Source: Rathayibacter soli
GTDB lineage: Bacteria; Actinomycetota; Actinomycetes; Actinomycetales; Microbacteriaceae
Direction of reading: 5' to 3'
Assembly (NCBI RefSeq): GCF_030866825.1
Contig: NZ_CP133020.1
Span: 4,164,924-4,188,923, forward strand
DNA: 24,000 bases
Part shown: positions 787-17,632 of the stretch, piece by piece
Layout of the letters: every line of letters starts with the position of its first letter
How positions within the stretch are numbered: position 1 is the stretch's first letter
The notes under the pieces: model-generated
Told to the model about the DNA's origin: nothing
Database searches by the model: none
What the model saw: the letters and a program-made list of their open reading frames with translations, nothing else
Made by a program: the position numbers and the translations under genes

Positions 787-995
787 GCTCGCCCCGCCCC
801 TCACCCCACAGATTGCGTCGAGTGCGTCCATGTGGCCATTTCCGGCTCGTTTTCACGCTCGATACCGACCAGATGAGCGCACTCGGCCGCGGGTTCAGAG
901 CGGAATGCGAAGTGGATTGTTAGGCAAGCCTCAGCTAAGTTTGTAGAGCAGCTTCGCTGTGCAGCGCCCCTGACTGGCACGAATACGCCTTGCAA

Positions 996-1022
996 GAACA
1001 CGACTCGCACGAACACGACTCG
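996..1022 (+). repeat. Direct repeat gaacacgactcg x2 (15-nt period) just upstream of the ECF S-component start
   Basis: gaacacgactcg at 996-1007 and again at 1011-1022. The ATG is at 1034 and no GGAG-like Shine-Dalgarno lies between. Confidence 0.7.
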
Positions 1023-1033
1023 AAACGACACAC

Positions 1034-1618
1034 ATGCACAAGCTGAGCACCCGCCTGCTCTTGACGCTCGCCGCGATCGGCGTCGCGGGCGGCATCGTGT
1101 GCCTGCCGACAATCTACGCCGGCACCGCGCTACTCGCGGTCGCCCCTCCGCTGTATGGCCTGATCGTCGGGGCATACGTCTTTCCCGGCGTGATCGCTCA
1201 ATCATTGTTGCGGCGTGGCGGCGTTGCCTTCGCGACAGCGACGTTGGCCGGCCTCGTTGCTGCCCCGTTCTTTCCAGGCGGTGTCGCCTACATTCCGGCG
1301 TTTGCGCTCGTCGGAGCGTTGCAGGAGGTGCCGTTCGCGGTCAGCGCGTACCGGTACTGGCGTGGCTGGGTTTTCTACCTGACAGCGGTTGTCGTCGGGC
1401 TGAGTATCGCCGTCGCCGAGTTCATCGCCGTCGCCGGCGAACGTGCGCCGCTGTGGGTCCAGATCGTCAAGCCCGGTGTGTTCGTTGTCAGCCTGGTGGT
1501 CTTCACAGTGCTCGGCCGCGCCGTCGCGGCCGGGCTGAATCGGGCGGGCGTCGGCCGCGGCCTCGCGCTTCCCATTGATCGGCGCCGCGTCGCCCGGGTG
1601 CAGAATCCAGTTCCGTGA
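1034..1618 (+). CDS. ECF transporter S (substrate-capture) component, YkoE-like (COG4721 thiamine/HMP-precursor type)
   Basis: 194-aa all-hydrophobic protein. The pattern (..YGLIVGAYVFPGVIAQSLLRRGGVAF.., ..GALQEVPFAVSAYRYWRGW.., ..VLGRAVAAGLNRAGV..) parallels B. subtilis YkoE as I remember it. It sits directly upstream of a fused double ATPase and an EcfT gene, which is the ykoEDC order. The only in-frame start after the upstream stop at 971-973 is ATG 1034 (plus a CTG at 974). Confidence 0.75.
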   Translation: MHKLSTRLLLTLAAIGVAGGIVCLPTIYAGTALLAVAPPLYGLIVGAYVFPGVIAQSLLRRGGVAFATATLAGLVAAPFFPGGVAYIPAFALVGALQEVPFAVSAYRYWRGWVFYLTAVVVGLSIAVAEFIAVAGERAPLWVQIVKPGVFVVSLVVFTVLGRAVAAGLNRAGVGRGLALPIDRRRVARVQNPVP

Positions 1619-3444
1619 CTGCGGCGAGCAACACGACGAGCAACGCGGCGAGCAACACAAGACCCGACGCGACGCCCGCTGCCGCGCCTGACGCGCGGGT
1701 CGAAACGCCGCCGGTGCTCACAATCGACGGCGTGCGCATCCGCCACGCCGAACAGGATCGCTGCACTCCCGACAACATCACGTTCACGGTGCGCCCGGGC
1801 GAGGTCGTGCTCCTGCTCGGCCCGAGCGGCTGCGGCAAGTCCACTCTCACGCTGGCGATGAACGGGCTCATCCCGCACGCGATCGCCGCCACCCTCGACG
1901 GCACCGTCACCGTCGGCGGCGTGAGCACCGCCGACACCTCGCCCGCTCGGCTGAGCGAGAACGTCGCCATGGTCTTCCAAGATCCGGATGCCCAGATCGT
2001 CACCGGCAGCGTGCTCGACGAGGTTTGCTTCGGGCCGGAGAATCTGCGACTGCCGGTCGAGGTTGTGCGAGGGCGCGCCGAGACGGCCCTGCGCCAGGTG
2101 GGTTTGTGGGAGCGCCGCGCCGAGAGCCCAGACCGGCTCTCAGGCGGCGGCAGACAGCGACTTGCGATCGCCTGCGCGCTGGCACTGGATGCCCCCCTGC
2201 TGGTTCTCGACGAACCGACTGCGAACCTGGACCCCGCCGGAATCGATGAAGTGTATGCCGTGCTGCGCTCACTCGTCGAAGGCCCATCGAACCGTGCGAT
2301 CGTGCTGGTCGAGCACAACCTCGACGCCGCAATCGACCTGGTCGACAGAGTCGTCGTGCTCGACGCCGCGGGCCGGCTCGCCTTCGACGGACCGGTCGGT
2401 CCGACGCTGCGCAACAACGCGGATGCGCTCCTGCAGCTCGGCGTCTGGCTGCCCGTCGCGACTCTGGCCGCGCTTCGGCTGCGTGCCGCAGGCCTGCAGC
2501 TGGACCCGCTGCCGCTGACTCCCGCCGAGTTGCGCGCAGCCCTGGACTCAGTGCCCGCAGACGCGGTGCCCGCAGACGCGGTGCCCGCAGACGCGGTGCC
2601 CGAGCGCGGCCGAAGGCAGCTCCAGCAAGACCGCGAGGATGCCGCGCTCATCCAGGTGCGCGAACTCACGGTGCACACAGGGAAAGTGCCGGTTCTGCAC
2701 GAGGTGAGTCTGGACATCCACCGCGGTGATTTTCTCGCCGTGATCGGCATTAACGGCGCTGGCAAGACGACCCTGGTGCAGGCGATTGCCGGGGTCGTAC
2801 CGTCACCGCGCGCAGCAGTCCGGCTCGGGCAGCTCGACGTCGGCCGGGCCGGCGCGCGTGAGCGAGCGGCGCACGTGGGCTTCGTGTTCCAGAACCCGGA
2901 ACATCAGTTCCTGGCCTACACCGTGTTCGATGAGCTGGCGCACGGTTTGCGCATCCGCAAAGTCGCCGCCGCCGAGATCGACGCGCGGGTCAGCGCGATG
3001 CTGGAACGGTTCGGGCTCGCAGACGTGCGCGACCGGCATCCGTTCCTGCTGTCGGGCGGGCAGAAGCGACGCCTGTCTGTCGGGTCCGCACTCATTGACG
3101 GCGCGGACGTTCTGGTGCTGGATGAGCCGACGTTCGGGCAAGATCGCGCACGCGCAGGAGAGCTATTGGCAATTCTCGATGACCTGAACGCAGCCGGCAC
3201 CACGGTGATCATCGTCACGCACGATCTGCAGTTGGTCGCCGAGCATGCCAGCCATGTCGCGGTGCTGTCTGGCGGCCGGTTGTTGGCGCACGTACGAACC
3301 GAGGCGGCGTTCGCGGATGCCGCACTGATCGACCGCGCCGGGCTGCGGCTGCCACCGCTCGCGCAGGCGATGCGCGGGCTGCGCAAGCATCCGGAACTGC
3401 AGGGCGTCGTGCGGTTGAGCGACCTGCCCGGGCCGTCGCTATGA
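1615..3444 (+). CDS. ECF transporter fused double ATPase (EcfA-EcfA', YkoD-like ABC ATP-binding protein)
   Basis: Two complete ABC cassettes. Walker A: GPSGCGKST and GINGAGKTT. Signature: LSGGGRQRL and LSGGQKRRL. Walker B: LLVLDEPTANLD and VLVLDEPTFGQD. H-loops: VEHNL and VTHDL. GTG start at 1615 overlaps the upstream TGA (GTGA). Confidence 0.92.
   Translation: MTAASNTTSNAASNTRPDATPAAAPDARVETPPVLTIDGVRIRHAEQDRCTPDNITFTVRPGEVVLLLGPSGCGKSTLTLAMNGLIPHAIAATLDGTVTVGGVSTADTSPARLSENVAMVFQDPDAQIVTGSVLDEVCFGPENLRLPVEVVRGRAETALRQVGLWERRAESPDRLSGGGRQRLAIACALALDAPLLVLDEPTANLDPAGIDEVYAVLRSLVEGPSNRAIVLVEHNLDAAIDLVDRVVVLDAAGRLAFDGPVGPTLRNNADALLQLGVWLPVATLAALRLRAAGLQLDPLPLTPAELRAALDSVPADAVPADAVPADAVPERGRRQLQQDREDAALIQVRELTVHTGKVPVLHEVSLDIHRGDFLAVIGINGAGKTTLVQAIAGVVPSPRAAVRLGQLDVGRAGARERAAHVGFVFQNPEHQFLAYTVFDELAHGLRIRKVAAAEIDARVSAMLERFGLADVRDRHPFLLSGGQKRRLSVGSALIDGADVLVLDEPTFGQDRARAGELLAILDDLNAAGTTVIIVTHDLQLVAEHASHVAVLSGGRLLAHVRTEAAFADAALIDRAGLRLPPLAQAMRGLRKHPELQGVVRLSDLPGPSL
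2551..2602 (+). repeat. In-frame 15-nt tandem repeat (gtgcccgcagacgcg x3 plus a partial copy) encoding VPADA VPADA VPADA VPE in the inter-cassette linker
   Basis: Three identical copies at 2551-2565, 2566-2580 and 2581-2595, then gtgcccg at 2596-2602. Confidence 0.9.
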
Positions 3445-4292
3445 GCACGGGCGAGAGCGCGGGTTTGGGTGCGGGCACCGGCAGGGGAACGGTGACCGAC
3501 CCGTATCAGGCACGATCGGATGCTACGCCCCGGCGGTTCTTGTACGGCCTGAATCCGCTGGCCACGCTCGCCGCAGTGCTGCCGGTCATCGTGGCTGCAC
3601 TGTTCACCCGCAACGTCGCCACGCCGTTCGCGCTCACGGTGCTTGGAGTGGTCATCCTGCTCGTCGGAGTGCGTCTGAGCCTGAAAGCGCTGATCCTGCT
3701 ACTGGTCGCACTGCCGGCGTTCGTCTGCGTTCTGACGGTGAGTTTCGGGGTCTGGACCGATCCGGCCATGGTTGCCGACACTCCTGTGGTGGTGCGACTT
3801 GGTGGATTCCAGCTGTACGCGGGCGCTCTCGAGGTGGGCTTGGCCACGGCTCTGCGCCTGGCCGTGCTGATCGTGCTCGCGTTGGCCTGCTCGCTGGCGA
3901 CGCAGGGGGCGGACTTCGTGCGGTCGGCAGTCCGTTACCTGCGCGTTCCATACCGAATCGGCTACACGGTGCTCGCGGCCTACCGTTTCGTGCCCCGGTT
4001 CGGCCGCGAACTGGAGGTGATCCGGCAGGCGCACCGCGTGCGCGGCTCGGCGGGCGGGCGTGGGCCGATCGGCGCCATCCGACGCGGATTCGGCTCGGTG
4101 GTTCCGCTGCTGGCCGCCGCGATTCGGCATGCCGAACGGGTCGCCCTGGCGATGGATGCGCGCGCGTTCGGTGCATACCCCACTCGCACGGAGCGTCATG
4201 AGGTGCCGCTGCGCCTGTGCGACGGTGTCGCCATTGCCGTTTTCTGGCTGGTGGCTGCGGGGATCTTCGTGCTGACGGCGGACCTGCGGTAG
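3441..4292 (+). CDS. ECF transporter transmembrane T component (EcfT/CbiQ family, YkoC-like)
   Basis: 283-aa polytopic membrane protein. The C-terminal half carries the Arg-rich cytoplasmic helices typical of EcfT (..AYRFVPRFGRELEVIRQAHRVRG.., ..AAAIRHAERVALAMDARAFG..). ATG at 3441 overlaps the ATPase stop (ATGA). Confidence 0.85.
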   Translation: MSTGESAGLGAGTGRGTVTDPYQARSDATPRRFLYGLNPLATLAAVLPVIVAALFTRNVATPFALTVLGVVILLVGVRLSLKALILLLVALPAFVCVLTVSFGVWTDPAMVADTPVVVRLGGFQLYAGALEVGLATALRLAVLIVLALACSLATQGADFVRSAVRYLRVPYRIGYTVLAAYRFVPRFGRELEVIRQAHRVRGSAGGRGPIGAIRRGFGSVVPLLAAAIRHAERVALAMDARAFGAYPTRTERHEVPLRLCDGVAIAVFWLVAAGIFVLTADLR

Positions 4293-4343
4293 CTTGCGGG
4301 CAGCGCGGTGTCCCAAGGCGCGATGGCATGAGCGCGATCTATC

Positions 4344-5186
4344 ATGACACTCGTGTCTTCCACAAATGGCGAGGCCCGAGCCGCCGAGTCTGGTGCGACA
4401 GGCTTCAAACTGGCTGTGCTCGCGGCGGACCGATCCCTCGGCATTGCGTGGGCAGATCCCGGCGCCTGGCGAGCGGATGCCCCAGCATTGGCTCTCTTGA
4501 GCCAGCGCGAGCGCACACGCTACGCCGCGTTCACTCGACCGGAAGCCGCACACAGCTTTGCGCTCGGCAGAGCACTCATCAGGGAACTCGTCGCCTATGT
4601 GTCGGCGGTGCCCGCCGACGCAGTGAGGGTCGACGCGATGTGCCCGACTTGCGGCGGGCCGCACGGGAAGCCGATCATCGCGGCTCCCATTGCTGCGCGC
4701 GGGCGCATCCACGTGAGCGTGTCACGATGCGTGGGCGTCGTCGTTGCCGCCGCGACCACGGCAGGGCCGATCGGGGTCGACGTCGAGCCTGCAGACACCG
4801 GCAAGGACCGCATTTCCGGCGTCCGGTCGATCGCACCCGCCCCGCCCGGCATCGACGCAGAATCCGCTGAGGCAACGCTGCGCCGGTGGACGGCGATCGA
4901 GGCCGTGCTGAAAGCCGACGGGCGCGGGCTGACACTCGATCCATCAAACGTCACCTTTTACCGCACGGCGAGCGCGGCTGACCCGGCAATCGCGGCTGAC
5001 GCGACCGGTGGTGCGGTAACGGCGCAGATCGGTGACGAGCGCGCTCGCTACGCGGTGACGCATCCGCAGATCGACTGGGCGTTCGTGGTTGGGATCGCCG
5101 TGGCTCAGCGCGGCGGCGGGAGCGCCGGAAGCGCGTGGTCGACCAGCCACCGGTCGAAGAAGTCGTCCAGTGGTGCGTCGGAGTAG
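4344..5186 (+). CDS. Sfp-type 4'-phosphopantetheinyl transferase
   Basis: Motifs GGPHGKPII, IGVDVEP and WTAIEAVLKADG (the W-x-x-K-E-A-x-x-K-like PPTase motif). The first ~20 codons have low GC3, so the true start may lie downstream of 4344. The stop at 5184-5186 is fixed. The C-terminal ~25 aa look like non-conserved read-through into the convergent gene. Confidence 0.75.
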   Translation: MTLVSSTNGEARAAESGATGFKLAVLAADRSLGIAWADPGAWRADAPALALLSQRERTRYAAFTRPEAAHSFALGRALIRELVAYVSAVPADAVRVDAMCPTCGGPHGKPIIAAPIAARGRIHVSVSRCVGVVVAAATTAGPIGVDVEPADTGKDRISGVRSIAPAPPGIDAESAEATLRRWTAIEAVLKADGRGLTLDPSNVTFYRTASAADPAIAADATGGAVTAQIGDERARYAVTHPQIDWAFVVGIAVAQRGGGSAGSAWSTSHRSKKSSSGASE

Positions 5187-6436
5187 CGGGACGCGAGCGC
5201 CCGAAAATCGGCGGTCGTGACGCATCCGTAGCGAAACGCATCCGTCCAGTCGTGCAGCAGCCGGAAGAACGCGTCGTCGCCGATTCGCAGCCGCAGCGCG
5301 TGCAGTGTCAAGGCGCCGCGTTTGTAGACGCGATCGTCGAACATGGCGCCGGGCCCCGGGTCGGCGATCGAGAGGTTCGCACGCAGTTCGGCGAGCTGCG
5401 CGTGGTGAAGACGGGCGCAGGCATCCGCACTGGACGAGCCGGAGCGCTCCGACCACAACCATTCCGCGTAGCAGGCGAATCCCTCGTTGAGCCAGATGTG
5501 CCGCCAGGCGGCGATGCCGACGCTGTTTCCGAACCACTGGTGAGCGAGTTCGTGCGCGATCAACCGGTCGGATCCGCCGTTACCGTCGGCGTGGTTCGCA
5601 CCGAAGACCGCCATGCCCTGTGCTTCCAGCGGGATCTCCAGGTCGTCGGCTGTCACGACCACGCCGTAGCCGTCGAACGGGTACGGACCGAACGATTCCT
5701 GGAACAGGGCCATCATGCGGTCGAGGTGTCTGAAGTCACGGTGCACCCGGTGCTCGATCGCCAGCGGGTACGCGAACAACCCGCGTACTCCGTTCAGGTC
5801 GGGGTGCGCCCGCTTGTATTGGCCGATCTGCACGGTCGCCAAATAGGTCGCAGTCGGCTGCGCCTGCTCGTACACCCAGACGCCCTTGCCGTGCGCGACC
5901 CGGTGGTCTCGGAGCCTGCCATTGCAGATCACCGTGTACTGCTGCTCCGTCGAAACGCGGATGCGGTAGGTCGCCTTCGACGCCGGGTGGTCGTTGCACG
6001 GGAACCAGGTGGACGCCCCGGACGGCTGGGCGGCGACGATCACGCCGTCTGTCAGTTCCTCCCAGCCGACGGCGCCCCACGGGCTGCGCCGGGGAGCGGG
6101 CGCCCCGCCGTAGCTGACGATGACGGTGAACACCGACCCCGCCGCGACAACCGACGCCGGCGTGACAACCAGCTTGTAGCCGGGATGCGAGATCTTGGCA
6201 GCGGGAACGCCGTTGACGCTCACCTTGACCGCTCGCAGCTTTGCCAAGTCGAAACTGAACCGATGCAACGGCTCGGTTGCGACCGCCTGAATCTTCGCCG
6301 TGGCATCCAGCCGGTTTCTGACCACGCGATAGTCGAGGTCGAGGTCGTACGACGCGACAATGTATCCGCCATTGCCGAGGCCGGGCAGGTAGGTATCCCC
6401 CGCACTGTTGGCACCCGCTTGGACCGTGCTCATCAC
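5105..6436 (-). CDS. M1-family zinc metallopeptidase (aminopeptidase N / LTA4H-like fold)
   Basis: HELAH (nt 5540-5554) followed 18 residues later by the Glu of WLNEGFACYAE, giving HEXXH-X18-E. The N-terminal beta-domain resembles M1 family members. Start is GTG 6436 or the adjacent in-frame ATG 6433. No Shine-Dalgarno; the start lies inside the 17-nt repeat array. Confidence 0.9.
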   Translation of the reverse strand: MMSTVQAGANSAGDTYLPGLGNGGYIVASYDLDLDYRVVRNRLDATAKIQAVATEPLHRFSFDLAKLRAVKVSVNGVPAAKISHPGYKLVVTPASVVAAGSVFTVIVSYGGAPAPRRSPWGAVGWEELTDGVIVAAQPSGASTWFPCNDHPASKATYRIRVSTEQQYTVICNGRLRDHRVAHGKGVWVYEQAQPTATYLATVQIGQYKRAHPDLNGVRGLFAYPLAIEHRVHRDFRHLDRMMALFQESFGPYPFDGYGVVVTADDLEIPLEAQGMAVFGANHADGNGGSDRLIAHELAHQWFGNSVGIAAWRHIWLNEGFACYAEWLWSERSGSSSADACARLHHAQLAELRANLSIADPGPGAMFDDRVYKRGALTLHALRLRIGDDAFFRLLHDWTDAFRYGCVTTADFRALASRYSDAPLDDFFDRWLVDHALPALPPPR

Positions 6437-6517
6437 TGGACCGTGCTCATCATTGGACTGTGCTCATCACTGGACCGTGCTCATCACTGGACCGTGCTCA
6501 TCGTTTGCTGCTCATCA
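6421..6517 (-). repeat. 17-nt tandem repeat array (unit ATGAGCACGGTCCAGTG on the minus strand) filling the whole Pls-like/peptidase intergenic space
   Basis: Plus-strand units ggaccgtgctcatcact at 6421-6437, 6438-6454 (1 mismatch), 6455-6471 (1 mismatch), 6472-6488 and 6489-6505 (diverged 3' end), then a degenerate copy up to 6517. Each unit duplicates the peptidase start region. Confidence 0.92.
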
Positions 6518-9500
6518 CTTGGTCGACGTGTGATAGTCGGCGGTCGTCACTTCACGCCACGGCCCGATGGGGTTGCCGCTCCAGCGACTGAACGCTGGCA
6601 CATATTCGCCGCGCAACACGAGCGACGCCGGCCCGACGCTCGCGTGGCTGCCGATCCGCGCAGCGGGCAGGATGACGCTGTGCGGGCCGATCGTCGACCC
6701 GGTATCGAAAGTGACTGTGTCGATGCTCATGATTCGATCATGGAACAGATGTGTCTGCACCACACAACCGCGATTCACGGTCGACGCGTCGCCGAGCCGC
6801 ACGAGGTCTGCTTCCGGCAGCCAATAGCTGTCGCACCAGACCCCACTCCCGATCGAGGCGCCGAGGCTGCGCAGCCACCAGACCAGCGCGGGAGTGCCAG
6901 CGGCCGCCTGCGCGAACCAGGGAGCCGCGACCATTTCGACGAACGTGTCTGCAACCTCACTGCGCCACACGAACGATGACCAGAGCGGATGCTCACCCGC
7001 CCGGATGCGCCCCACCAGCAGCCACTTCGCCACCGTCGAGAAGGCGGCGGCCACGGCTCCGGCCGCGAGCATGACGACGCCACTGAGCAGCACAGCCAGC
7101 CAGACATCGAACGCCGCTGTGATGGCGGCAAGCATGAGCAGCACCCCGAGCCCGACCGCGCAGGTCACAACAACGGGCACGAACCGGCACAGCTCCCACA
7201 GTGTACGGGCGATGCGCAACGAGGCGCGCGGGGCGAAAGTACGACTCTGATCCCCGACCGCCGCGGTTCTGCGCAGACGCACGGCCGGCGATCCGAGCCA
7301 CGACGAGCCGGCTTTCGACTTGCGCGGGGCGGAAGACAGCACAGCAACCAGCCCGTCGCGCGGCACCGTGTGCCCGGGCCCGGCCATCCCGGAGTTGCCG
7401 AGGAACGCTCGGGCGCCGATCTCGGCACGGGCGACCCGCAGCCGGCCACCGCCGAGCTCGTAGGAGGCAACCAGGGTGTCGTCGGCCAGGAACGCACCGT
7501 CTTTCACCGTCGTCATCACGGGCAGCAGCAGCACCGTCGACGCCTCGACGTCCCGCCCCACCTTCGCCCCGAGCATCCGCAACCAGACCGGCGTGGCCAG
7601 GCTCGAATAGATGGGGAAAAGCATGGTGCGCGCCAGATCAAGCAGTCTCTCACTCGCCCAGACCTGCCAGCCGATCCGAGAGCGCACCGGATACGTTCCC
7701 TCGCGGATGCCGATCCCCAGCACCCGCACGAACAACACAACGAGCAACGCCAGCACAATGCCAGCCACGATCGTCGCGGGCACCAGCATCGCGAACGCGC
7801 GCAGGGCGGCAACGCCGAGGCTCGGCGCGTCGCGCAGCACAGGCGCTGCCACGACAACCCCCGCCGCAAGCGCGATGAACGGCAGCAGTGAAACGATCAG
7901 CGAAGCCCCACCGAACGCAAAGACCCAACGCGTGGCCTGCCGCGGCCGCTCGGACGGCCACCACAGATCGGCCGAACCGACCCGAGCGGCCGGCGAACCG
8001 GCCCACCGCTGCCCGGCCGGCACACGGCCGAACACAGACGACCCCGGAGCAACCACCGCGTTCTTGCCGATCCGCGCACCGGGCAGCAGCGTGCTGCGGG
8101 CCCCGATCGAGGAGTTTCCGCCGATGCGGATCGCGCCGATGCGCAGCAGGTCACCGTCGATCCAGTAGCCGGAAAGGTCGACCTCCGGCTCGATCGAAGC
8201 CCCGGCGCCGATGCGCAGCATCCCCGTGACCGGCGGGATCGCGTGCAGGTCGACGTTGGGAGCTATGGTCGCGCCGAGCGCGCGCGCATAGTACGAAATC
8301 CATGGCGCTCCGGCGAGACTGACCGCACCGAGCTGATGCGCGATCTGCTCGGCCAGCCACAGCCGCAGATGTACGCCGCCGCCGCGCGGATAGTCGCCGG
8401 CGCGCACCCCGGCAAGCAGGGTGCGGGCGCACACGACGGAGATTGCCATCCGCCCGAACGGCGTCACGAAGATCAGCAGTGCGATCACGAGCCCCCACAC
8501 ATTGACGTGCGGCAGAAAGCCGAAGCCGCCGAAACCGGAAAGGATCTGGCTTGCCGTCAACAGATACAGCAGCCAGCGCACCCCGCTCAGAATGAACAGT
8601 GGGACGCCGAGAATCGTCTGCAGCCACTGCATCCGCCGCGGCGTCCGCGAAACGACGTGTTCGGATGTCCGCACCACCGGCCCATCGTCGGCCCGCGCTT
8701 TCAACTCGGTCGCCATCGCACCGAGCCTGGGGTGTGCGTAAATATCGGCAACCGTGAATTCCGGATCGTTCTCGCGGATGCGGGTGACCAGCTGAGCCGC
8801 AGCGAGGGAGCCGCCGCCGAGGTCGAAGAAGTTCGCGTCAGCATCCGTCACCGGAATTCCGAGCACGGAGCGCCACTGCTCGGCGAGCTGCCGCAGGCCC
8901 TCGTCCATGCTGTCGGATTCGGCGGGGTCCTGCAGCAACGGCCAGGGTAGCGCGTCGCGATCGACCTTGCCCGAGGTGCGCGTCGGCAGTTCATCCATCA
9001 CCGCGAGCAGCGGCACGATCGCCGCAGGGAGTTCCGCGCGTAGCCGGGTGAGGCTGGCCGCACGATCAAATGCGCCTGGGTCGGCGACCGACAGGTAACC
9101 GACGAGCACCTTGTTGCCCGCCTCGGTCGTTCGTACTGCGGCCGCGGCGGCCGTTACTCCCGGCAGCGCCTGCAGTGCCGCTTCGATTTCACCCAGCTCG
9201 ATGCGTCGTCCACCGACCTTGACCTGATCGTCTGCCCTGCCTTGAAAGATCAGCCCAGTGGGCTCAAAACGCACGAGGTCACCGCTGCGATAGGCGCGCG
9301 GCCAGCCGAGCGCGGCATCCGCAGCGTACTTCTCGGCATCCTTCACCGGGTCGAGGTACCGGGCCAGGCCGACACCGCCGATGACGAGCTCACCGACCTC
9401 GCCGTCTGCAACGGGTTGCCCGTTCGCGGCGAGAACTGCGAGATCCCAGCCGTCCAAGGGCAGGCCGATCGGCACGGGTTCGCCGGGATGCAGCAGCGCC

Positions 9501-10540
9501 GCGCACGCCACGACAGTCGCTTCGGTCGGTCCGTAGGTGTTCCACACCTCACGCCCCTCGACCGCCAGGCGATCCACCAGTTCGCGCGGGCACGCTTCGC
9601 CGCCGAAGATGAGCAGTCGAACGTTCTCAAGGGACTCAACCGGCCACAGCGCCGCGAGTGTCGGCACCGTCGAGACGATCGTTATGCCGTGCGTGGTCAA
9701 CCAAGGCCCCAGATCCGTTCCGCTGCGCACCAGCGAGCGCGGCGCGGGAACCAGGCAGGCGCCGTTGCGCCAGGCCAGCCACATCTCCTCGCAGGATGCG
9801 TCGAATGCTACGGACAGTCCGGCGAGCACCCGGTCGCCGGGCCCGATCTTCTCCCGTTGCACGAACAGTCGCGCTTCTGCATCGACGAATGCGGCGGCCG
9901 AACGGTGCGTCACGGCGACGCCCTTCGGAGTGCCCGTCGACCCCGAGGTGAAGATGATCCACGCGTCATGGTCAGGCGAGGGCGGCGTCACGATCACGTT
10001 CGCATGCGTGCTGGCGTGTGGCGGGGTGCCAGCAAAGAGCGAGCGGTCGCCAGGCGGATGGTCATGTCCCGCTACCGACCGGCCGGCCTCGCCGAACGGC
10101 TGGGTCCGCTCGCCTGCCGGCCTGGTTTCGTCGAGCGCAAGTCGCGATGACGGCTCGAAGACGCCGTTAGCTACGATCACTCCGCTCACCGTAGCCTCGC
10201 CGAAGACGAGTTCGGCGCGCTCGACGGGATCGTCGGCATCCACCGGAACATAGGCGGCGCCCGCCGCCAGAATCGCCAAGATCGCCACGTACAGTTCTCG
10301 TGAGCCGGACGGCATCCGCACGCCGACGCGATCACCGGGTTGCACGCCGGCCTCATGCAGCCGCGCGCTCACACGCACGACGCGCGCCATCAGTTCCCGA
10401 TAGCTCAGGGCGCCTGCGGCATCTTCGAGTGCCGATGCCTCAGGGAACCTCTGCGTCGTGTCTCGCAGAATGTCCAGCAGTGTTCGCTCCGGCGCGGCAA
10501 AGCTGCTGCGGAGCAGGGTTCCGGGCGGAGAGTCGTTCAC
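6515..10540 (-). CDS. Pls/PosA-family single-module membrane NRPS (epsilon-poly-L-lysine synthetase-like homopoly(amino acid) synthetase): A-T-2TM-C1-2TM-C2-2TM-C3
   Basis: GTG start at 10540 with GGGAG 7 nt upstream. Full set of adenylation cores (IIFTSGSTGTPKGV, FDAS, NTYGPTE, GELVIGGVGLARYL, YRSGDLV, GRADDQVKVGGRRIELGEIE, SGKVDRDAL). Carrier motif FFDLGGGSLAA. Then three hexapeptide-repeat soluble segments separated by three pairs of hydrophobic helices. No HHxxxDG condensation motif and no thioesterase domain. Confidence 0.9.
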   Translation of the reverse strand: MNDSPPGTLLRSSFAAPERTLLDILRDTTQRFPEASALEDAAGALSYRELMARVVRVSARLHEAGVQPGDRVGVRMPSGSRELYVAILAILAAGAAYVPVDADDPVERAELVFGEATVSGVIVANGVFEPSSRLALDETRPAGERTQPFGEAGRSVAGHDHPPGDRSLFAGTPPHASTHANVIVTPPSPDHDAWIIFTSGSTGTPKGVAVTHRSAAAFVDAEARLFVQREKIGPGDRVLAGLSVAFDASCEEMWLAWRNGACLVPAPRSLVRSGTDLGPWLTTHGITIVSTVPTLAALWPVESLENVRLLIFGGEACPRELVDRLAVEGREVWNTYGPTEATVVACAALLHPGEPVPIGLPLDGWDLAVLAANGQPVADGEVGELVIGGVGLARYLDPVKDAEKYAADAALGWPRAYRSGDLVRFEPTGLIFQGRADDQVKVGGRRIELGEIEAALQALPGVTAAAAAVRTTEAGNKVLVGYLSVADPGAFDRAASLTRLRAELPAAIVPLLAVMDELPTRTSGKVDRDALPWPLLQDPAESDSMDEGLRQLAEQWRSVLGIPVTDADANFFDLGGGSLAAAQLVTRIRENDPEFTVADIYAHPRLGAMATELKARADDGPVVRTSEHVVSRTPRRMQWLQTILGVPLFILSGVRWLLYLLTASQILSGFGGFGFLPHVNVWGLVIALLIFVTPFGRMAISVVCARTLLAGVRAGDYPRGGGVHLRLWLAEQIAHQLGAVSLAGAPWISYYARALGATIAPNVDLHAIPPVTGMLRIGAGASIEPEVDLSGYWIDGDLLRIGAIRIGGNSSIGARSTLLPGARIGKNAVVAPGSSVFGRVPAGQRWAGSPAARVGSADLWWPSERPRQATRWVFAFGGASLIVSLLPFIALAAGVVVAAPVLRDAPSLGVAALRAFAMLVPATIVAGIVLALLVVLFVRVLGIGIREGTYPVRSRIGWQVWASERLLDLARTMLFPIYSSLATPVWLRMLGAKVGRDVEASTVLLLPVMTTVKDGAFLADDTLVASYELGGGRLRVARAEIGARAFLGNSGMAGPGHTVPRDGLVAVLSSAPRKSKAGSSWLGSPAVRLRRTAAVGDQSRTFAPRASLRIARTLWELCRFVPVVVTCAVGLGVLLMLAAITAAFDVWLAVLLSGVVMLAAGAVAAAFSTVAKWLLVGRIRAGEHPLWSSFVWRSEVADTFVEMVAAPWFAQAAAGTPALVWWLRSLGASIGSGVWCDSYWLPEADLVRLGDASTVNRGCVVQTHLFHDRIMSIDTVTFDTGSTIGPHSVILPAARIGSHASVGPASLVLRGEYVPAFSRWSGNPIGPWREVTTADYHTSTK
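8807..8809 (-). other. Codon of predicted phosphopantetheine attachment serine (Ser578) of the Pls-like carrier domain
   Basis: The minus strand reads aac ttc ttc gac ctc ggc ggc ggc tcc ctc gct = NFFDLGGGSLA. The tcc codon is the reverse complement of gga at 8807-8809. Confidence 0.8.
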
Positions 10541-10623
10541 AACTGAGCTCCCGTCAATTCGTCCGGCGCTCTGAGCCTCACGACGCTACCGGGGCAAGGT
10601 TGCCAGGCGGCAAACGGCTTCGC

Positions 10624-11190
10624 TCACGAGTTCTTCAGCAGCGCGATCAGGCCTGCCTTGTTCAGTCGCGAGTAGTTCTCCAGCCCTTTCGCGTGGGCTT
10701 GGCCGCGCAGCATCGCGACGGTGGAACGCTCCAACATCGTCAGTGGGGCGTGGGCAGGCGCCTCTGCCGGGGCTGCCGCCTCAGCAGGCGCTGGGATGCT
10801 CGGCGTTGCGGTGCCCGACGACACTGCGGGCTTGACCGGCGTGGCTTTCTCGGCAGACACGGCAGTCTTGGAAGACGCGGCCTTCTTGGCCGAAGCTGCC
10901 TTCTTGGCCGGAGCTGCCGACTTGGCCGCCTTGGCAGACTTCGCAGCGCTCGGCTTCTTCGCAGGCTCGCTCTTCTTCGACTTGGCCCCCTTCGAGGCCT
11001 TGTCGTTCTTGGCAGGCGCGGTCCCCTTGGCCCGTTTCAGCGACAGTTCCAGGTCCTTCGCCTTTGCCTTCGCTTTGGCGCGGGTTTTCTTCTCCAGCTT
11101 CTTCGCTCGGAGCAACGCTTCATCGACCGCATCCTTGGCGTCCGAGTATGCCTTCTTCGCGGCCTTTTCGAGCTTCTTCGCTTTCGGCAC
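10624..11190 (-). CDS. Lys/Ala-rich basic protein with C-terminal Rho_N (Rho termination factor N-terminal / SAP-like) domain
   Basis: AKKA/AKSA-rich, histone-H1-like low-complexity body. The C-terminal end LERSTVAMLRGQAHAKGLENYSRLNKAGLIALLKNS matches the Rho_N helix-hairpin pattern. High GC3 from the GTG at 11190 (VPKAKKLEKAAKK...), with GAAGGGGTGG upstream. The ORF-track TTG start at 11301 adds 37 codons of low GC3, so I prefer 11190. The start remains uncertain. Confidence 0.7.
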   Translation of the reverse strand: MPKAKKLEKAAKKAYSDAKDAVDEALLRAKKLEKKTRAKAKAKAKDLELSLKRAKGTAPAKNDKASKGAKSKKSEPAKKPSAAKSAKAAKSAAPAKKAASAKKAASSKTAVSAEKATPVKPAVSSGTATPSIPAPAEAAAPAEAPAHAPLTMLERSTVAMLRGQAHAKGLENYSRLNKAGLIALLKNS

Positions 11191-11377
11191 GTGCGGTACC
11201 ACCCCTTCACTGCGAACTACGTCGATTGTGGGCAATTCTCCCACTCTGTGGCCAAATCTTCGGCGCGCGCGCTCAAGCCCCAGCGAATGGCCCGGCAGCA
11301 ACTCACCACGCCCTCCCTCTTCACGGCGCCGAGTGCAAATCCGTCAAGTGCGCTTGTGGCCGGGCGTCGCGCGGCCC

Positions 11378-13502: not shown

Positions 13503-13627
13503 CCCGGAGCGGAGTCGGGCGGCCCTTCGGCGAGCTCAGGGATCGGACGGGCAAGCTCAGGCGTCCCGGTCGCTGAGCGGAGCCGAAGCGCCCTAACGAC
13601 GGGCCCTTCGGCGAGCTCAGGGACCGG
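13503..13627. repeat. Dispersed hairpin-forming intergenic element, locus A (about 1.5 tandem copies)
   Basis: ggtcgctgagcggagccgaagcg (13568-13590) ... ggcccttcggcgagctcagggaccgg (13602-13627). There is an earlier partial copy: gagcggagtcgggcg + ggcccttcggcgagctcaggga (13521-13542). CTGAGC pairs with GCTCAG and GCCGAAG pairs with CTTCGGC. Related copies occur at 14273-14300 and 17671-17744. Confidence 0.75.
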
Positions 13628-14237
13628 GGGGCAGGATGATCAGGTCGAGGAACGTGGCCAGGTGTTCGGCAACGTCGACCGTTTGCGGTTGCAGCAACCA
13701 TTGCAACTGGATGCCGTCCCACAGCGCGACAAGCGAACTCGCCGCGATCAACGGGTCGACCCCTTCACGCAACCGGCCGGCGTCACGAAGTGCCTCGAAC
13801 TCGCGCGTGTACGCCTCGCGCAGTGAGGAAAAGCGGCCGATGAAGTACTCGCGACCCGGATGCTCCGTCGTCGTCGACTCGGCGGATAACACCGCGTACA
13901 ACGCGATCAGCCCGGGGATGCTCTCGTTCGCGCGAGCCTGCGCAAGGAGGTGCTCACGAAAGCCTGCGGCATCCGCCGTCTCGGGTTCCTGAGCTTGCCG
14001 AAGGGCGCCCCCGTGATCACGCAACTCGAGCACGGCCAGCAGCAGGTCTTCTTTGGTCGGAAAGTGATGGGTCAGATTCGAAAGGCTGATCCCGGCTGCT
14101 CCCGCCACCTCACGTAGAGACCCCGCGTGATAGCCGCGGGCTGCGAAAACCTGGTGCGCGGCGTGCAAGATCTGTTGCCGACGAGCAGCTGTCTTGGAAT
14201 ACTGCCCGCGACGTGCGGGTCCGGATGGTGTTGCCAT
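13617..14237 (-). CDS. TetR/AcrR-family transcriptional regulator
   Basis: N-terminal HTH ..RRQQILHAAHQVFAARGYHAGSLREVAGAAGISLSNLTHHFPTKEDLLLAVLE.. I prefer the ATG at 14237 (GGAGG 6 nt upstream) over the ORF-track ATG at 14252. The stop TGA (13617-13619) lies inside the dispersed repeat. Confidence 0.9.
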   Translation of the reverse strand: MATPSGPARRGQYSKTAARRQQILHAAHQVFAARGYHAGSLREVAGAAGISLSNLTHHFPTKEDLLLAVLELRDHGGALRQAQEPETADAAGFREHLLAQARANESIPGLIALYAVLSAESTTTEHPGREYFIGRFSSLREAYTREFEALRDAGRLREGVDPLIAASSLVALWDGIQLQWLLQPQTVDVAEHLATFLDLIILPPGP

Positions 14238-14272
14238 CGGTTCCCTCCCCATCCACGCGCCGGTGAGCTGGT

Positions 14273-14300
14273 CCGCCCTTCGACAAGCTCAGGGACCGGG
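14273..14300. repeat. Dispersed intergenic element, locus B (right half only)
   Basis: ccgcccttcgacaagctcagggaccggg matches the right arm of the locus A and C elements. The upstream tgagct (within cggtgagctgg) can pair with agctca. Confidence 0.5.
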
Positions 14301-14318
14301 CACGGATGCTGCAGCTCG

Positions 14319-14370
14319 CTCGGCCAGGCTGCTCGGCCAGCCCGCTCTGCCAGCTTACCGGCCAAAATAG
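14319..14370. repeat. Four imperfect 13-nt direct repeats (core CTCGGCCAG) in the TetR / GH2 divergent promoter region
   Basis: ctcggccaggctg (14319-14331), ctcggccagcccg (14332-14344), ctctgccagctta (14345-14357), ccggccaaaatag (14358-14370). They lie 75-125 nt upstream of the GH2 ATG. Confidence 0.6.
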
Positions 14371-14395
14371 GTCACTTGTTCCGTTTTGATGATAA

Positions 14396-17632
<3,237 letters not shown>

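What the first reader, a model, noticed from the sequence alone, without database searches (positions are those of the whole stretch)
1034..11190. Candidate cationic-homopolymer locus: basic Rho_N protein -> Pls-like synthetase -> M1 peptidase, convergent with an ECF transporter + Sfp-type PPTase operon
Seen directly:
- On the minus strand, the Lys/Ala-rich protein (10624-11190), the Pls-like gene (83-nt gap, own GGGAG SD) and the M1 peptidase (repeat-coupled) are co-directional.
- On the plus strand, the ECF S-AA'-T genes are followed after 51 nt by an Sfp-type PPTase. Its 3' end runs into the peptidase gene.

Established knowledge: the Pls carrier domain needs an Sfp-type PPTase to become active. 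In S. albulus, as I recall, a poly-lysine-degrading peptidase gene (pldII) lies directly downstream of pls and controls polymer accumulation and self-protection.

Inference: the PPTase is the dedicated activator. The M1 peptidase is the polymer-trimming or self-resistance partner. The ECF transporter may be unrelated vitamin-precursor uptake or may be co-opted. The combination of synthetase, coupled M1 peptidase and adjacent PPTase is a compact, testable three-gene system.
Basis: partly seen in the sequence, partly recalled or inferred. Interest (0 to 1): 0.65.

Follow-up and report, generated by a model that had tools for sequence, protein, structure and literature searches.

The report
Polylysine synthetase, peptidase, activating enzyme cassette

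Summary

Interpretation supported, but not new.
- The 1341-aa gene is a Pls/PosA synthetase (TIGR02353, 709 bits). Its adenylation domain matches S. albulus Pls (PDB 7WEW, E 1e-184), with the same predicted Lys pocket.
- **Peptidase.** A two-domain M1 peptidase lies directly downstream on the same strand in 38/38 Microbacteriaceae, 20/20 fetched class-level loci and 79/80 named actinobacterial loci. Stop and start usually overlap. This is the published pls-pldII arrangement.
- **PPTase.** A divergent Sfp-type PPTase is adjacent in 34/38 Microbacteriaceae, and also in Micrococcaceae, Intrasporangiaceae and Propionibacteriaceae. It is never adjacent in the sampled Mycobacteriales, Kribbella or Sphaerisporangium loci; five checked genomes with no PPTase beside that pls copy have other Sfp-type PPTases.
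- **One client.** The window's genome has only two PPTases and two carrier domains, so this PPTase has one visible client.
- **ECF transporter.** It is not a conserved neighbour.
- **Rho_N protein.** The Lys/Ala-rich protein recurs directly upstream of pls in 7/38 sampled and 10/20 named Microbacteriaceae loci. Its domain family also occurs in Pls-negative genomes.
- **Repeat.** The 17-nt repeat, a chain of five mini-ORFs between pls and the peptidase, is unique to this genome among 41 loci.

Earlier follow-ups in this scan described the same cassette on other DNA and judged it ordinary; I agree.

The parts
6515..10540 (-). pls: single-module membrane NRPS of the Pls/PosA family. It has an A domain, a T domain with Ser578 in LGGGSL, and six TM segments in three pairs flanking three tandem C-terminal domains.
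   Evidence: TIGR02353 709 bits (cut-off 423), PF00501 and PF00550, with no C or TE domain. PDB 7WEW (S. albulus Pls A domain) E 1.4e-184. Hydrophobic segments at about 642-661, 681-705, 872-904, 907-948, 1116-1145 and 1150-1176. The pocket residues D247 A248 E251 T294 I311 G313 T335 V343 V344 K525 are invariant in 12 orthologues.
6420..6517 (-). pls-peptidase junction. A 17-nt tandem repeat forms five overlapping stop/start mini-ORFs (MSSKR*, then MSTVQ* four times) leading to the peptidase ATG at 6433.
   Evidence: TRF finds period 17, 4.9 copies, 93% matches. The mini-ORFs and overlaps were read out. The 17-mer occurs nowhere else in the genome. All 40 other loci have a short junction without this repeat, mostly with direct TGATG/ATGA/GTGA overlaps.
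5105..6433 (-). PldII-type two-domain M1 zinc peptidase, about 442 aa, with HELAH-X18-E and no signal peptide. An alternative GTG start lies at 6436.
   Evidence: PF01433 and PF17900. Closest structure is 6A8Z, the two-domain M1 protease of D. radiodurans, E 1e-51. The zinc motif is intact here and in 40 orthologues. Orthologues at E<1e-110 occur only next to pls.
4344..5186 (+). Divergent Sfp-type 4'-phosphopantetheinyl transferase, convergent with the peptidase gene and overlapping its 3' end by 82 nt.
   Evidence: PF01648 28 bits. The AlphaFold model (pLDDT 73.6) has AASDHPPT, Sfp, PptT and PcpS as best PDB folds at probability 1.0. G144-x-D146 and W182-x3-E186-A-x2-K190 are invariant; position 148 is Glu in most of the 17 homologues. 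It is one of only two PPTases in the genome.
10624..11190 (-). Lys/Ala-rich protein of 188 aa with an N-terminal helical motif, a low-complexity K/A/P spacer and a C-terminal Rho_N-like domain. It is a recurrent but non-obligatory neighbour upstream of pls.
   Evidence: Rho_N scores 17.9 bits, below the cut-off. The same architecture lies directly upstream of pls in G064, G027, G099, G036, G024, G119 and a Rhodoglobus MAG and in 10/20 named Microbacteriaceae loci. The domain family is also present in Pls-negative genomes.
1034..4292 (+). ECF transporter S-AA'-T operon. It is a neighbour only and not part of the polylysine module.
   Evidence: Domain assignments. There are no ECF-S or ECF-T homologues in 120 other pls loci. 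No riboswitch was found.

Best explanation
The core is a three-gene cassette for a lysine polycation, most likely epsilon-poly-L-lysine.

How it works (all steps inferred from homology; nothing was assayed):
1. The Sfp-type PPTase transfers phosphopantetheine from CoA to Ser578 of the Pls carrier domain.
2. The Pls adenylation domain activates L-lysine and loads it on that arm.
3. The three membrane-embedded C-terminal domains add it repeatedly to a growing chain.
4. The M1 peptidase is translated from the same mRNA. It cuts the polymer, setting chain length and protecting the producer, as PldII does in Streptomyces albulus.

In lineages with no other Sfp-type PPTase the cassette carries its own. 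The ECF transporter is an unrelated neighbour. The Lys/Ala-rich Rho_N protein is an occasional Microbacteriaceae accessory of unknown role.
For: **Family membership**
- TIGR02353 scores 709 bits, with an A-T architecture and no C or TE domain.
- Six TM segments lie in three pairs.
- The A domain matches 7WEW at E 1.4e-184. The pocket residues, read by motif anchoring as DAETIGTVVK, are identical in both and invariant in 12 orthologues from ten families.

**Peptidase**
- An orthologue at E<1e-110 is directly downstream on the same strand in 38/38 Pls-positive Microbacteriaceae and absent from 83 Pls-negative ones.
- In the class sample all 20 fetched loci have it. By the coordinates, by my tally 44 of 45 full-length pls genes do.
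- It is present in 79/80 named loci.
- Stop and start overlap at most junctions.
- The literature describes pls-pldII as coupled, polymer-degrading and protective (PMC9223678; PMC8117764).

**PPTase**
- It has an Sfp fold and conserved catalytic motifs.
- It is adjacent in 34/38 Microbacteriaceae.
- In named loci it is adjacent in 18/20 Microbacteriaceae, in 10 of 11 Micrococcaceae loci (Arthrobacter, Paenarthrobacter, Pseudarthrobacter, Kocuria, Specibacter), in Humibacillus and in a Propionibacteriaceae MAG. None is adjacent in Nocardia, Rhodococcus, Mycobacterium, Tsukamurella, Williamsia, Gordonia, Kribbella or Sphaerisporangium.
- The window's genome has only two PPTases and two PP-binding domains, the Pls T domain and one ACP.
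- Of five other genomes with an adjacent PPTase, three have exactly AcpS plus that one. One has a third PPTase, and in one Pfam missed the adjacent copy.
- Five genomes with no PPTase beside that pls copy all have other Sfp-type PPTases.
- Pairwise identities of Pls, M1 and PPTase co-vary across 17 loci (Spearman 0.67-0.73).
Against: - No product, transcript or enzyme activity was observed.
- The PPTase match to Pfam is weak (28 bits) and the model is of moderate confidence (pLDDT 73.6, TM about 0.45).
- The PPTase is co-directional with the ECF operon across a 51-nt gap, so it may be transcribed with that operon rather than with pls.
- Two genomes of one genus (G007, G107), Leifsonia shinshuensis and Microbacterium sp. 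RU1D have no detected PPTase beside pls-M1.
- The peptidase has no signal peptide, whereas PldII is described as acting outside the membrane (PMC9223678).
- I did not hold the S. albulus PldII sequence. Orthology to it rests on conserved position and on what the papers say.
- The five-step mini-ORF chain may weaken peptidase translation in this strain.
Confidence: 0.85

Rival explanations
1. The PPTase is the organism's general Sfp-type enzyme. It merely sits near pls and serves other, undetected carrier proteins or is expressed with the ECF operon. It is not a dedicated activator.
For: It is co-directional with the ECF-T gene across a 51-nt gap. It is unlinked from pls in G007 and G107 and not detected within 6 kb in L. 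shinshuensis and Microbacterium sp. RU1D. Four Pls-negative Microbacteriaceae have weak homologues.
Against: Only one non-ACP carrier domain was found in the whole genome. Adjacency holds in 34/38 genomes and in several other families, in two different arrangements. The ECF genes never accompany it elsewhere.
Confidence: 0.08
2. The synthetase makes a polymer other than secreted epsilon-poly-L-lysine. Examples are a different linkage or chain length, or a cell-associated polycation with a physiological rather than antibiotic role.
For: Linkage and length are set by the C-terminal domains, which are only about 57-60% identical overall to Streptomyces-like orthologues. The family includes PosA and other polymer synthetases (PMC10522769). 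The peptidase looks cytoplasmic.
Against: The pocket residues are identical to those of S. albulus Pls. C. variabile Pls, at 51% identity to S. albulus Pls, still makes epsilon-PL (PMC8117764). The pls-peptidase context is described there as specific to Pls and different from the other three synthetases.
Confidence: 0.12
3. The whole 10.6-kb block (ECF transporter, PPTase, peptidase, pls, Rho_N protein) is one functional island. In it the transporter and the basic protein serve polymer production or immunity.
For: A genome of the same genus has the same flanks but carries a single serine-hydrolase gene instead of window 787-11377. The Rho_N protein recurs next to pls. Long Lys-rich forms were seen mainly in Pls-positive genomes.
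Against: ECF-S and ECF-T are absent from all 120 other pls loci. The Rho_N domain family is present in 63/121 genomes, including Pls-negative ones. The replacement in the congener does not show that the genes arrived together.
Confidence: 0.1

Closest known systems
pls-pldII operon of Streptomyces albulus (epsilon-poly-L-lysine synthetase and type II degrading enzyme)
   Same: The synthetase has the same architecture. Its A domain matches 7WEW at E 1e-184 with the same pocket residues. A zinc peptidase gene lies directly downstream on the same strand, with translational coupling as the general rule (PMC9223678).
   Different: A PPTase gene is attached here, whereas the Streptomyces-like locus I fetched has none adjacent. 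Direct stop/start overlap is replaced in this strain by a 17-nt repeat chain of mini-ORFs. Overall Pls identity to the Streptomyces-like orthologue is 57%.
Corynebacterium variabile Pls operon (shown to make epsilon-PL when expressed in S. coelicolor)
   Same: It is a non-Streptomyces actinobacterial pls forming an operon with a homologous peptidase. The same paper found Pls homologues in Microbacterium, Arthrobacter, Micrococcus and others (PMC8117764).
   Different: That paper does not mention a PPTase (the term does not occur in it). No Corynebacterium locus was among those I fetched. The other Mycobacteriales loci I sampled have no adjacent PPTase.
PosA, delta-poly-L-ornithine synthetase of Acinetobacter baumannii, and the other Pls/PosA polymer synthetases
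   Same: Same protein family (TIGR02353) and the same iterative membrane mechanism (PMC10522769).
   Different: They differ in substrate pocket and gene context. The peptidase partner is reported as specific to Pls-type loci (PMC8117764).
Sfp of Bacillus subtilis, PptT of mycobacteria and human AASDHPPT (type II PPTases)
   Same: Two-lobed fold (Foldseek probability 1.0) with the GxDxE and WxxxE(A/S)xxK motifs.
   Different: Sequence similarity is very low (phmmer E 0.11 to Sfp). This clade has an invariant C-x2-C-G-x(1-4)-H-G motif where Sfp has YGKP.
Two-domain M1 metallopeptidase of Deinococcus radiodurans (PDB 6A8Z/6IFF)
   Same: Short M1 enzyme of about 440-470 aa, without the C-terminal ERAP1-like domain, with HEXXH-X18-E.
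   Different: The alignment shows only moderate similarity (E 1e-51). I did not examine its gene context.

Membership tests
Pls/PosA family synthetase (epsilon-poly-L-lysine synthetase type) | N-terminal adenylation plus thiolation didomain, with no canonical condensation or thioesterase domain | tested here: met
   PF00501 covers residues 26-394 and PF00550 covers 551-611. No C or TE family appears among the Pfam or NCBIfam hits.
Pls/PosA family synthetase (epsilon-poly-L-lysine synthetase type) | C-terminal Pls/PosA domain (TIGR02353) above the curated cut-off | tested here: met
   709 bits against a cut-off of 423.1, covering profile positions 2-695.
Pls/PosA family synthetase (epsilon-poly-L-lysine synthetase type) | Six transmembrane helices in three pairs separating three tandem soluble domains | tested here: met
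   A Kyte-Doolittle scan gives three pairs of hydrophobic segments between residues 642 and 1176. This is a simple hydropathy scan, not a topology predictor.
Pls/PosA family synthetase (epsilon-poly-L-lysine synthetase type) | Lysine-specific substrate pocket as in S. albulus Pls | tested here: met
   The ten pocket positions, located by motif anchoring to the GrsA numbering, read DAETIGTVVK in both the window protein and 7WEW. They are invariant in 12 orthologues.
Pls/PosA family synthetase (epsilon-poly-L-lysine synthetase type) | Product is epsilon-linked poly-L-lysine | not testable with these tools
   Needs expression and chemical analysis.
PldII-type pls-coupled peptidase | Gene directly downstream of pls on the same strand and translationally coupled | tested here: met
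   It is adjacent here and in 38/38, 20/20 and 79/80 loci. Here the coupling runs through five overlapping mini-ORFs instead of one overlap.
PldII-type pls-coupled peptidase | Zinc metallopeptidase active site | tested here: met
   HELAH-X18-E is present here and in all 40 orthologues. PF01433 and PF17900 are both over cut-off.
PldII-type pls-coupled peptidase | Sequence orthology to S. albulus PldII itself | not tested
   I did not hold the PldII sequence. Orthology is inferred from conserved position in Streptomyces-like genomes and from PMC8117764 Fig. 1C as described in its text.
PldII-type pls-coupled peptidase | Hydrolyses epsilon-poly-L-lysine (endo-type) | not testable with these tools
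   Needs an enzyme assay.
Sfp-type (type II) 4'-phosphopantetheinyl transferase | PF01648 domain over cut-off and a two-lobed fold of about 230 aa | tested here: met
   PF01648 scores 28.0 bits against a cut-off of 25. The N-terminal lobe scores 18.4 bits, below its cut-off. The model's best PDB matches are AASDHPPT, Sfp, MuPPT and PptT at probability 1.0, TM 0.44-0.55.
Sfp-type (type II) 4'-phosphopantetheinyl transferase | Catalytic metal-binding and base motifs (GxDxE; WxxxE(A/S)xxK) | tested here: met
   G144, D146, W182, E186, A187 and K190 are invariant in 17 homologues. Position 148 is Glu here and in most of them.
Sfp-type (type II) 4'-phosphopantetheinyl transferase | Modifies the Pls carrier domain | not testable with these tools
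   Inferred from one-to-one counts of PPTases and carrier domains and from linkage.
Rho_N domain (PF07498) | Match above Pfam's gathering score | tested here: not met
   17.9 bits against a cut-off of 24.9. A profile built from seven pls-adjacent copies finds only this gene in the genome, at E 8e-22. It is a Rho_N-like subfamily, not a certified member.

The most novel reading that the evidence does not exclude
In Microbacteriaceae the polylysine cassette has a fourth, fast-evolving partner. This would be a histone-H1-like Lys/Ala-rich protein with a Rho_N-like nucleic-acid-binding end, acting in self-protection or regulation, for example by shielding nucleic acids from the intracellular polycation. 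In this strain, a 17-nt repeat that strings five stop/start mini-ORFs between pls and the peptidase would act as a copy-number-tunable attenuator of the peptidase-to-synthetase ratio, and hence of polymer length.
Probability: 0.2. Interest if true: 0.55.

Novelty: new member of a known kind. Interest (0 to 1): 0.3.

Why it matters
- **Practical value.** Epsilon-poly-L-lysine is a commercial food preservative. A self-contained three-gene cassette (activator, synthetase, trimming peptidase) from a small-genome actinobacterium is a convenient unit for heterologous production and for studying control of chain length.
- **Annotation rule.** The cassette carries its own Sfp-type PPTase in lineages that otherwise have only AcpS, and none was adjacent in the loci sampled from lineages that have PptT-like enzymes.
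- **Limits.** None of this changes what is known about how the system works.
- **Open points.** Only the recurrent basic Rho_N neighbour and the mini-ORF chain remain unexplained.

Tried and rejected
- **Sequencing runs.** I could test neither co-transcription nor repeat copy-number variation in reads.
- **Wrong-frame profile.** My first PPTase profile was built from wrong-frame ORFs. I discarded it and rebuilt it with strand and frame respected.
- **False negatives for Rho_N.** Plain tblastn and a whole-protein genome search found no Rho_N homologues. These were false negatives caused by low complexity. A C-terminal domain profile found them.
- **Promoters and terminators.** The consensus scan found no promoter-like site and two weak terminator-like sites that belong to no gene end, fewer than in shuffled sequence. 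Rfam found no riboswitch or other RNA.
- **Lys content.** The comparison of Rho_N proteins between Pls-positive and Pls-negative genomes is noisy. Start codons are uncertain, some domain coordinates are wrong, the threshold was chosen after seeing the data, and related genomes are not independent. I report it only as a lead.
- **GXMEN motif.** I considered arguing endo- versus exo-peptidase action from it. I rejected this because the alignment of IPLEAQG to GAMENWG is ambiguous.
- **ECF and CoA supply.** I considered the ECF transporter as a supplier of CoA precursor for the PPTase. I rejected this because the ECF genes never co-occur with pls elsewhere.


Full report
**What is there.** The window is high-GC (about 67%) DNA from a 4.74-Mb single-contig genome. 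The closest Pls proteins come from Leifsonia, Diaminobutyricibacter and other Microbacteriaceae at 72-78% identity in the C-terminal part.

- On the plus strand lies an ECF transporter: the S component 1034-1618 (PF09819), the fused A/A' ATPases 1615-3444 (TIGR04520 and TIGR04521, both over cut-off), and the T component 3441-4292 (CbiQ).
- After 51 nt comes a 280-aa PPTase, 4344-5186.
- On the minus strand lie a Lys/Ala-rich ORF (10624-11190, GTG preceded by GAAGGGG), the 1341-aa synthetase (6515-10540, GGGAG 7 nt before its GTG), and a 442-aa M1 peptidase (5105-6433).
- The PPTase and peptidase ORFs overlap tail to tail by 82 nt.

**The synthetase.**
- It scores 709 bits on TIGR02353, the Pls/PosA family model (cut-off 423). 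It has AMP-binding and PP-binding domains and no condensation or thioesterase domain.
- A hydropathy scan gives three pairs of membrane segments between residues 642 and 1176, flanking three soluble stretches. This is the published Pls layout (PMC8117764 legend).
- Its adenylation domain matches the crystal-structure sequence of the S. albulus Pls A domain (7WEW) at E 1.4e-184.
- I located the ten specificity positions by anchoring on the FDAS, VPT, LIxGGE, NTYGPTE and GKxDR motifs (Stachelhaus positions of GrsA, from established knowledge). They read DAETIGTVVK in both proteins.
- All ten are invariant in an alignment of 12 orthologues from ten actinobacterial families.
- The code is close to the canonical NRPS lysine code as I recall it. 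L-lysine is therefore the predicted monomer.
- It is the only member of the family in this genome.

**The peptidase.**
- It has both M1 domains and an intact HELAH-X18-E site. It lacks the C-terminal domain of long M1 aminopeptidases.
- Its nearest solved relative is the two-domain M1 enzyme of Deinococcus radiodurans (6A8Z, E 1e-51). Neither it nor its orthologues have a signal peptide.
- In an even sample of 121 Microbacteriaceae genomes, 38 have a Pls gene (32 of 101 genera). All 38 have an orthologue of this peptidase (44-64% identity, E<1e-110) directly downstream on the same strand.
- The 83 Pls-negative genomes have only distant PepN-like or paralogous hits.
- In an even sample of 301 genomes of the class, every peptidase hit stronger than 1e-120 lies next to a full-length pls. 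By my tally of the coordinates, 44 of 45 full-length pls genes have it. There is a sharp score gap to the unlinked paralogues. All 20 class-level loci that I fetched confirm it.
- Of 80 named loci from Microbacteriaceae, Micrococcaceae, Nocardiaceae, Mycobacteriaceae, Kribbella and others, 79 have it; the exception is Gordonia sp. B21.
- At most junctions the pls stop overlaps the peptidase start (TGATG, ATGA or GTGA).
- This matches the literature. In S. albulus, pldII is adjacent to and translationally coupled with pls, degrades the polymer, affects chain length and is needed for self-protection (PMC9223678). The C. variabile pls, which was shown to make epsilon-poly-L-lysine, forms the same operon with a homologous peptidase (PMC8117764).
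- I did not have the PldII sequence itself, so orthology to it is inferred from position.

**The PPTase.**
- By sequence alone it is marginal: PF01648 28 bits, HetI model E 3e-8 (below its cut-off), phmmer E 0.11 to Sfp.
- An alignment of 17 homologues from pls loci shows invariant G144-x-D146 and W182-x3-E186-A-x2-K190. These correspond to the metal-binding and catalytic motifs of Sfp-type enzymes. Position 148 is Glu in most of them.
- An AlphaFold model built on that alignment (pLDDT 73.6, pTM 0.75) finds only type II PPTases as best folds: AASDHPPT, Sfp, MuPPT, PptT, PptAb and PcpS, all at probability 1.0.
- The argument for a dedicated role is genomic. The genome holds two PPTases, an AcpS-sized one and this one. 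It holds two PP-binding domains, a 122-aa ACP frame and the Pls T domain. A clade-specific profile finds no second copy.
- Across Microbacteriaceae a homologue is next to pls-M1 in 34 of 38 genomes. It is convergent after the peptidase in 31 and upstream on the same strand in three. The other four are as follows:
  - One is broken by a contig end.
  - One has the PPTase beside a second pls paralogue.
  - Two genomes of one genus have it unlinked.
- Only four of the 83 Pls-negative genomes have even a weak homologue.
- In the named set the PPTase is attached in 18/20 Microbacteriaceae, in 10 of 11 Micrococcaceae loci (Arthrobacter, Paenarthrobacter, Pseudarthrobacter, Kocuria, Specibacter), in Humibacillus and in a Propionibacteriaceae MAG. 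It is attached in none of the Nocardia, Rhodococcus, Mycobacterium, Tsukamurella, Williamsia, Gordonia, Kribbella or Sphaerisporangium loci.
- Spot checks fit a simple rule. Of five genomes with an attached PPTase, three have just AcpS plus that one. Five genomes with no PPTase beside that pls copy all have other Sfp-type enzymes.
- Pairwise identities of the three proteins co-vary across loci (Spearman 0.67-0.73). This is expected for genes inherited together, although related genomes are not independent.

**What does not belong.**
- No ECF-S or ECF-T homologue lies near pls in any of the 120 other loci. The occasional ATPase hits are generic ABC similarity.
- There is no riboswitch upstream of the ECF operon.
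- The flanking genes are an EamA transporter, an alpha/beta hydrolase, a luciferase-like oxidoreductase, a TetR regulator and a GH2 beta-galactosidase.
- A genome of the same genus (G050) lacks pls, the peptidase orthologue, the PPTase and the Rho_N domain. It keeps the EamA flank (79%) and the hydrolase/oxidoreductase flank (75-86%), with a single 399-aa SxxK serine-hydrolase gene between them instead of window 787-11377. The 10.6-kb block therefore sits in a variable site. This does not show that the ECF genes and the cassette arrived together.

**The basic Rho_N protein.**
- Whole-protein searches were blinded by low complexity.
- The one database homologue, from a Rhodoglobus MAG, sits 6 nt upstream of a pls-M1 pair.
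- Re-reading the upstream regions showed the same tripartite protein directly before pls in several genera. It has a helical KxEKxAxKA...AVDEA...KLxKKxR head, a K/A/P-rich spacer and a C-terminal ...LRxRAxxxGxxGYSxLxKAQL... domain.
- A profile of the C-terminal domain finds it adjacent to pls in 7 of 38 sampled genomes and in 10 of 20 named Microbacteriaceae loci: Leifsonia twice, Microbacterium seven times, and Salinibacterium on the opposite strand. In one genome of another family it lies upstream of the PPTase instead.
- The domain family is also present in 63 of 121 genomes, including Pls-negative ones, with acidic or neutral spacers in some.
- Long Lys-rich forms were seen mostly in Pls-positive genomes. 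That comparison is noisy and post hoc.
- I read it as a recurrent accessory neighbour of unknown role, not as a core part.

**The repeat.**
- Between the pls stop (6517-6515) and the peptidase ATG (6433) lie 78 nt made of 17-nt units. These encode MSSKR* and four MSTVQ* mini-ORFs. Each stop overlaps the next ATG, and the last unit runs into MSTVQAGAN..., the peptidase.
- The units are copies of the first five codons of the peptidase.
- None of the 40 other loci examined has this repeat, and the 17-mer is unique in the genome.
- It looks like a strain-specific expansion of an ancestral TGATG junction that keeps coupling formally intact.

**Verdict.** The locus is a regular member of the known pls-pldII system, and standard pipelines already name the gene 'Pls/PosA family non-ribosomal peptide synthetase'. 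Earlier follow-ups in this scan reached the same conclusion for the same three-gene cassette on other DNA. The association with a dedicated PPTase is well supported here and was not mentioned in the papers I could search. It is, however, an unsurprising feature of a biosynthetic cluster.

Noticed in passing
window 16630-16742: A palindromic dispersed repeat of about 110 nt (GGTGGTCGAGTAGC...GCTACTCGACCAAC) gives more than 230 BLAST matches in the window's genome and dozens in the congener. This copy lies in frame inside the GH2 beta-galactosidase ORF (14444-17632), between the LacZ_4 and small-chain domains, without a stop.
   Followed up: partly
window 787-11377 versus L132 (G050:C18) 2242-3489: The whole 10.6-kb block (ECF operon, PPTase, peptidase, pls, Rho_N gene) is replaced in a genome of the same genus by one 399-aa SxxK serine-hydrolase gene between conserved EamA and alpha/beta-hydrolase flanks. 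The TetR and beta-galactosidase genes (13617-17362) are also missing there.
   Followed up: partly
window 4344-5186 (residues 100-108 of the PPTase): The pls-linked PPTase clade has an invariant C-x2-C-G-x(1-4)-H-G motif where Sfp has YGKP. It holds in 17 homologues from four families and may be a metal site.
   Followed up: no
class-level genomes G405, G374, G245, G385, G329, G297, G219: These genomes (6.1-9.1 Mb, and 4.3-5.1 Mb for G219/G297) carry additional proteins that score 590-790 bits on the Pls/PosA C-terminal model. Their open frames are only about 870-1190 aa, apparently without an adenylation domain, and the peptidase is not adjacent.
   Followed up: no
G089:C1:2188642-2190701: In this Microbacteriaceae genome pls is split into two overlapping frames, a probable frameshift. 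The peptidase and PPTase next to it are intact.
   Followed up: no
loci L135, L146, L156, L160, L162, L166, L130: Long Lys-rich Rho_N-like proteins also occur unlinked, or 8-13 kb from pls, in Pls-positive genomes. The copies sampled from Pls-negative genomes are mostly short or not Lys-rich. This is suggestive only.
   Followed up: partly
window 787-1033: No riboswitch (TPP or other) was detected upstream of the YkoE-like ECF operon at Rfam gathering thresholds. A 15-nt-period repeat lies at 972-1022.
   Followed up: partly
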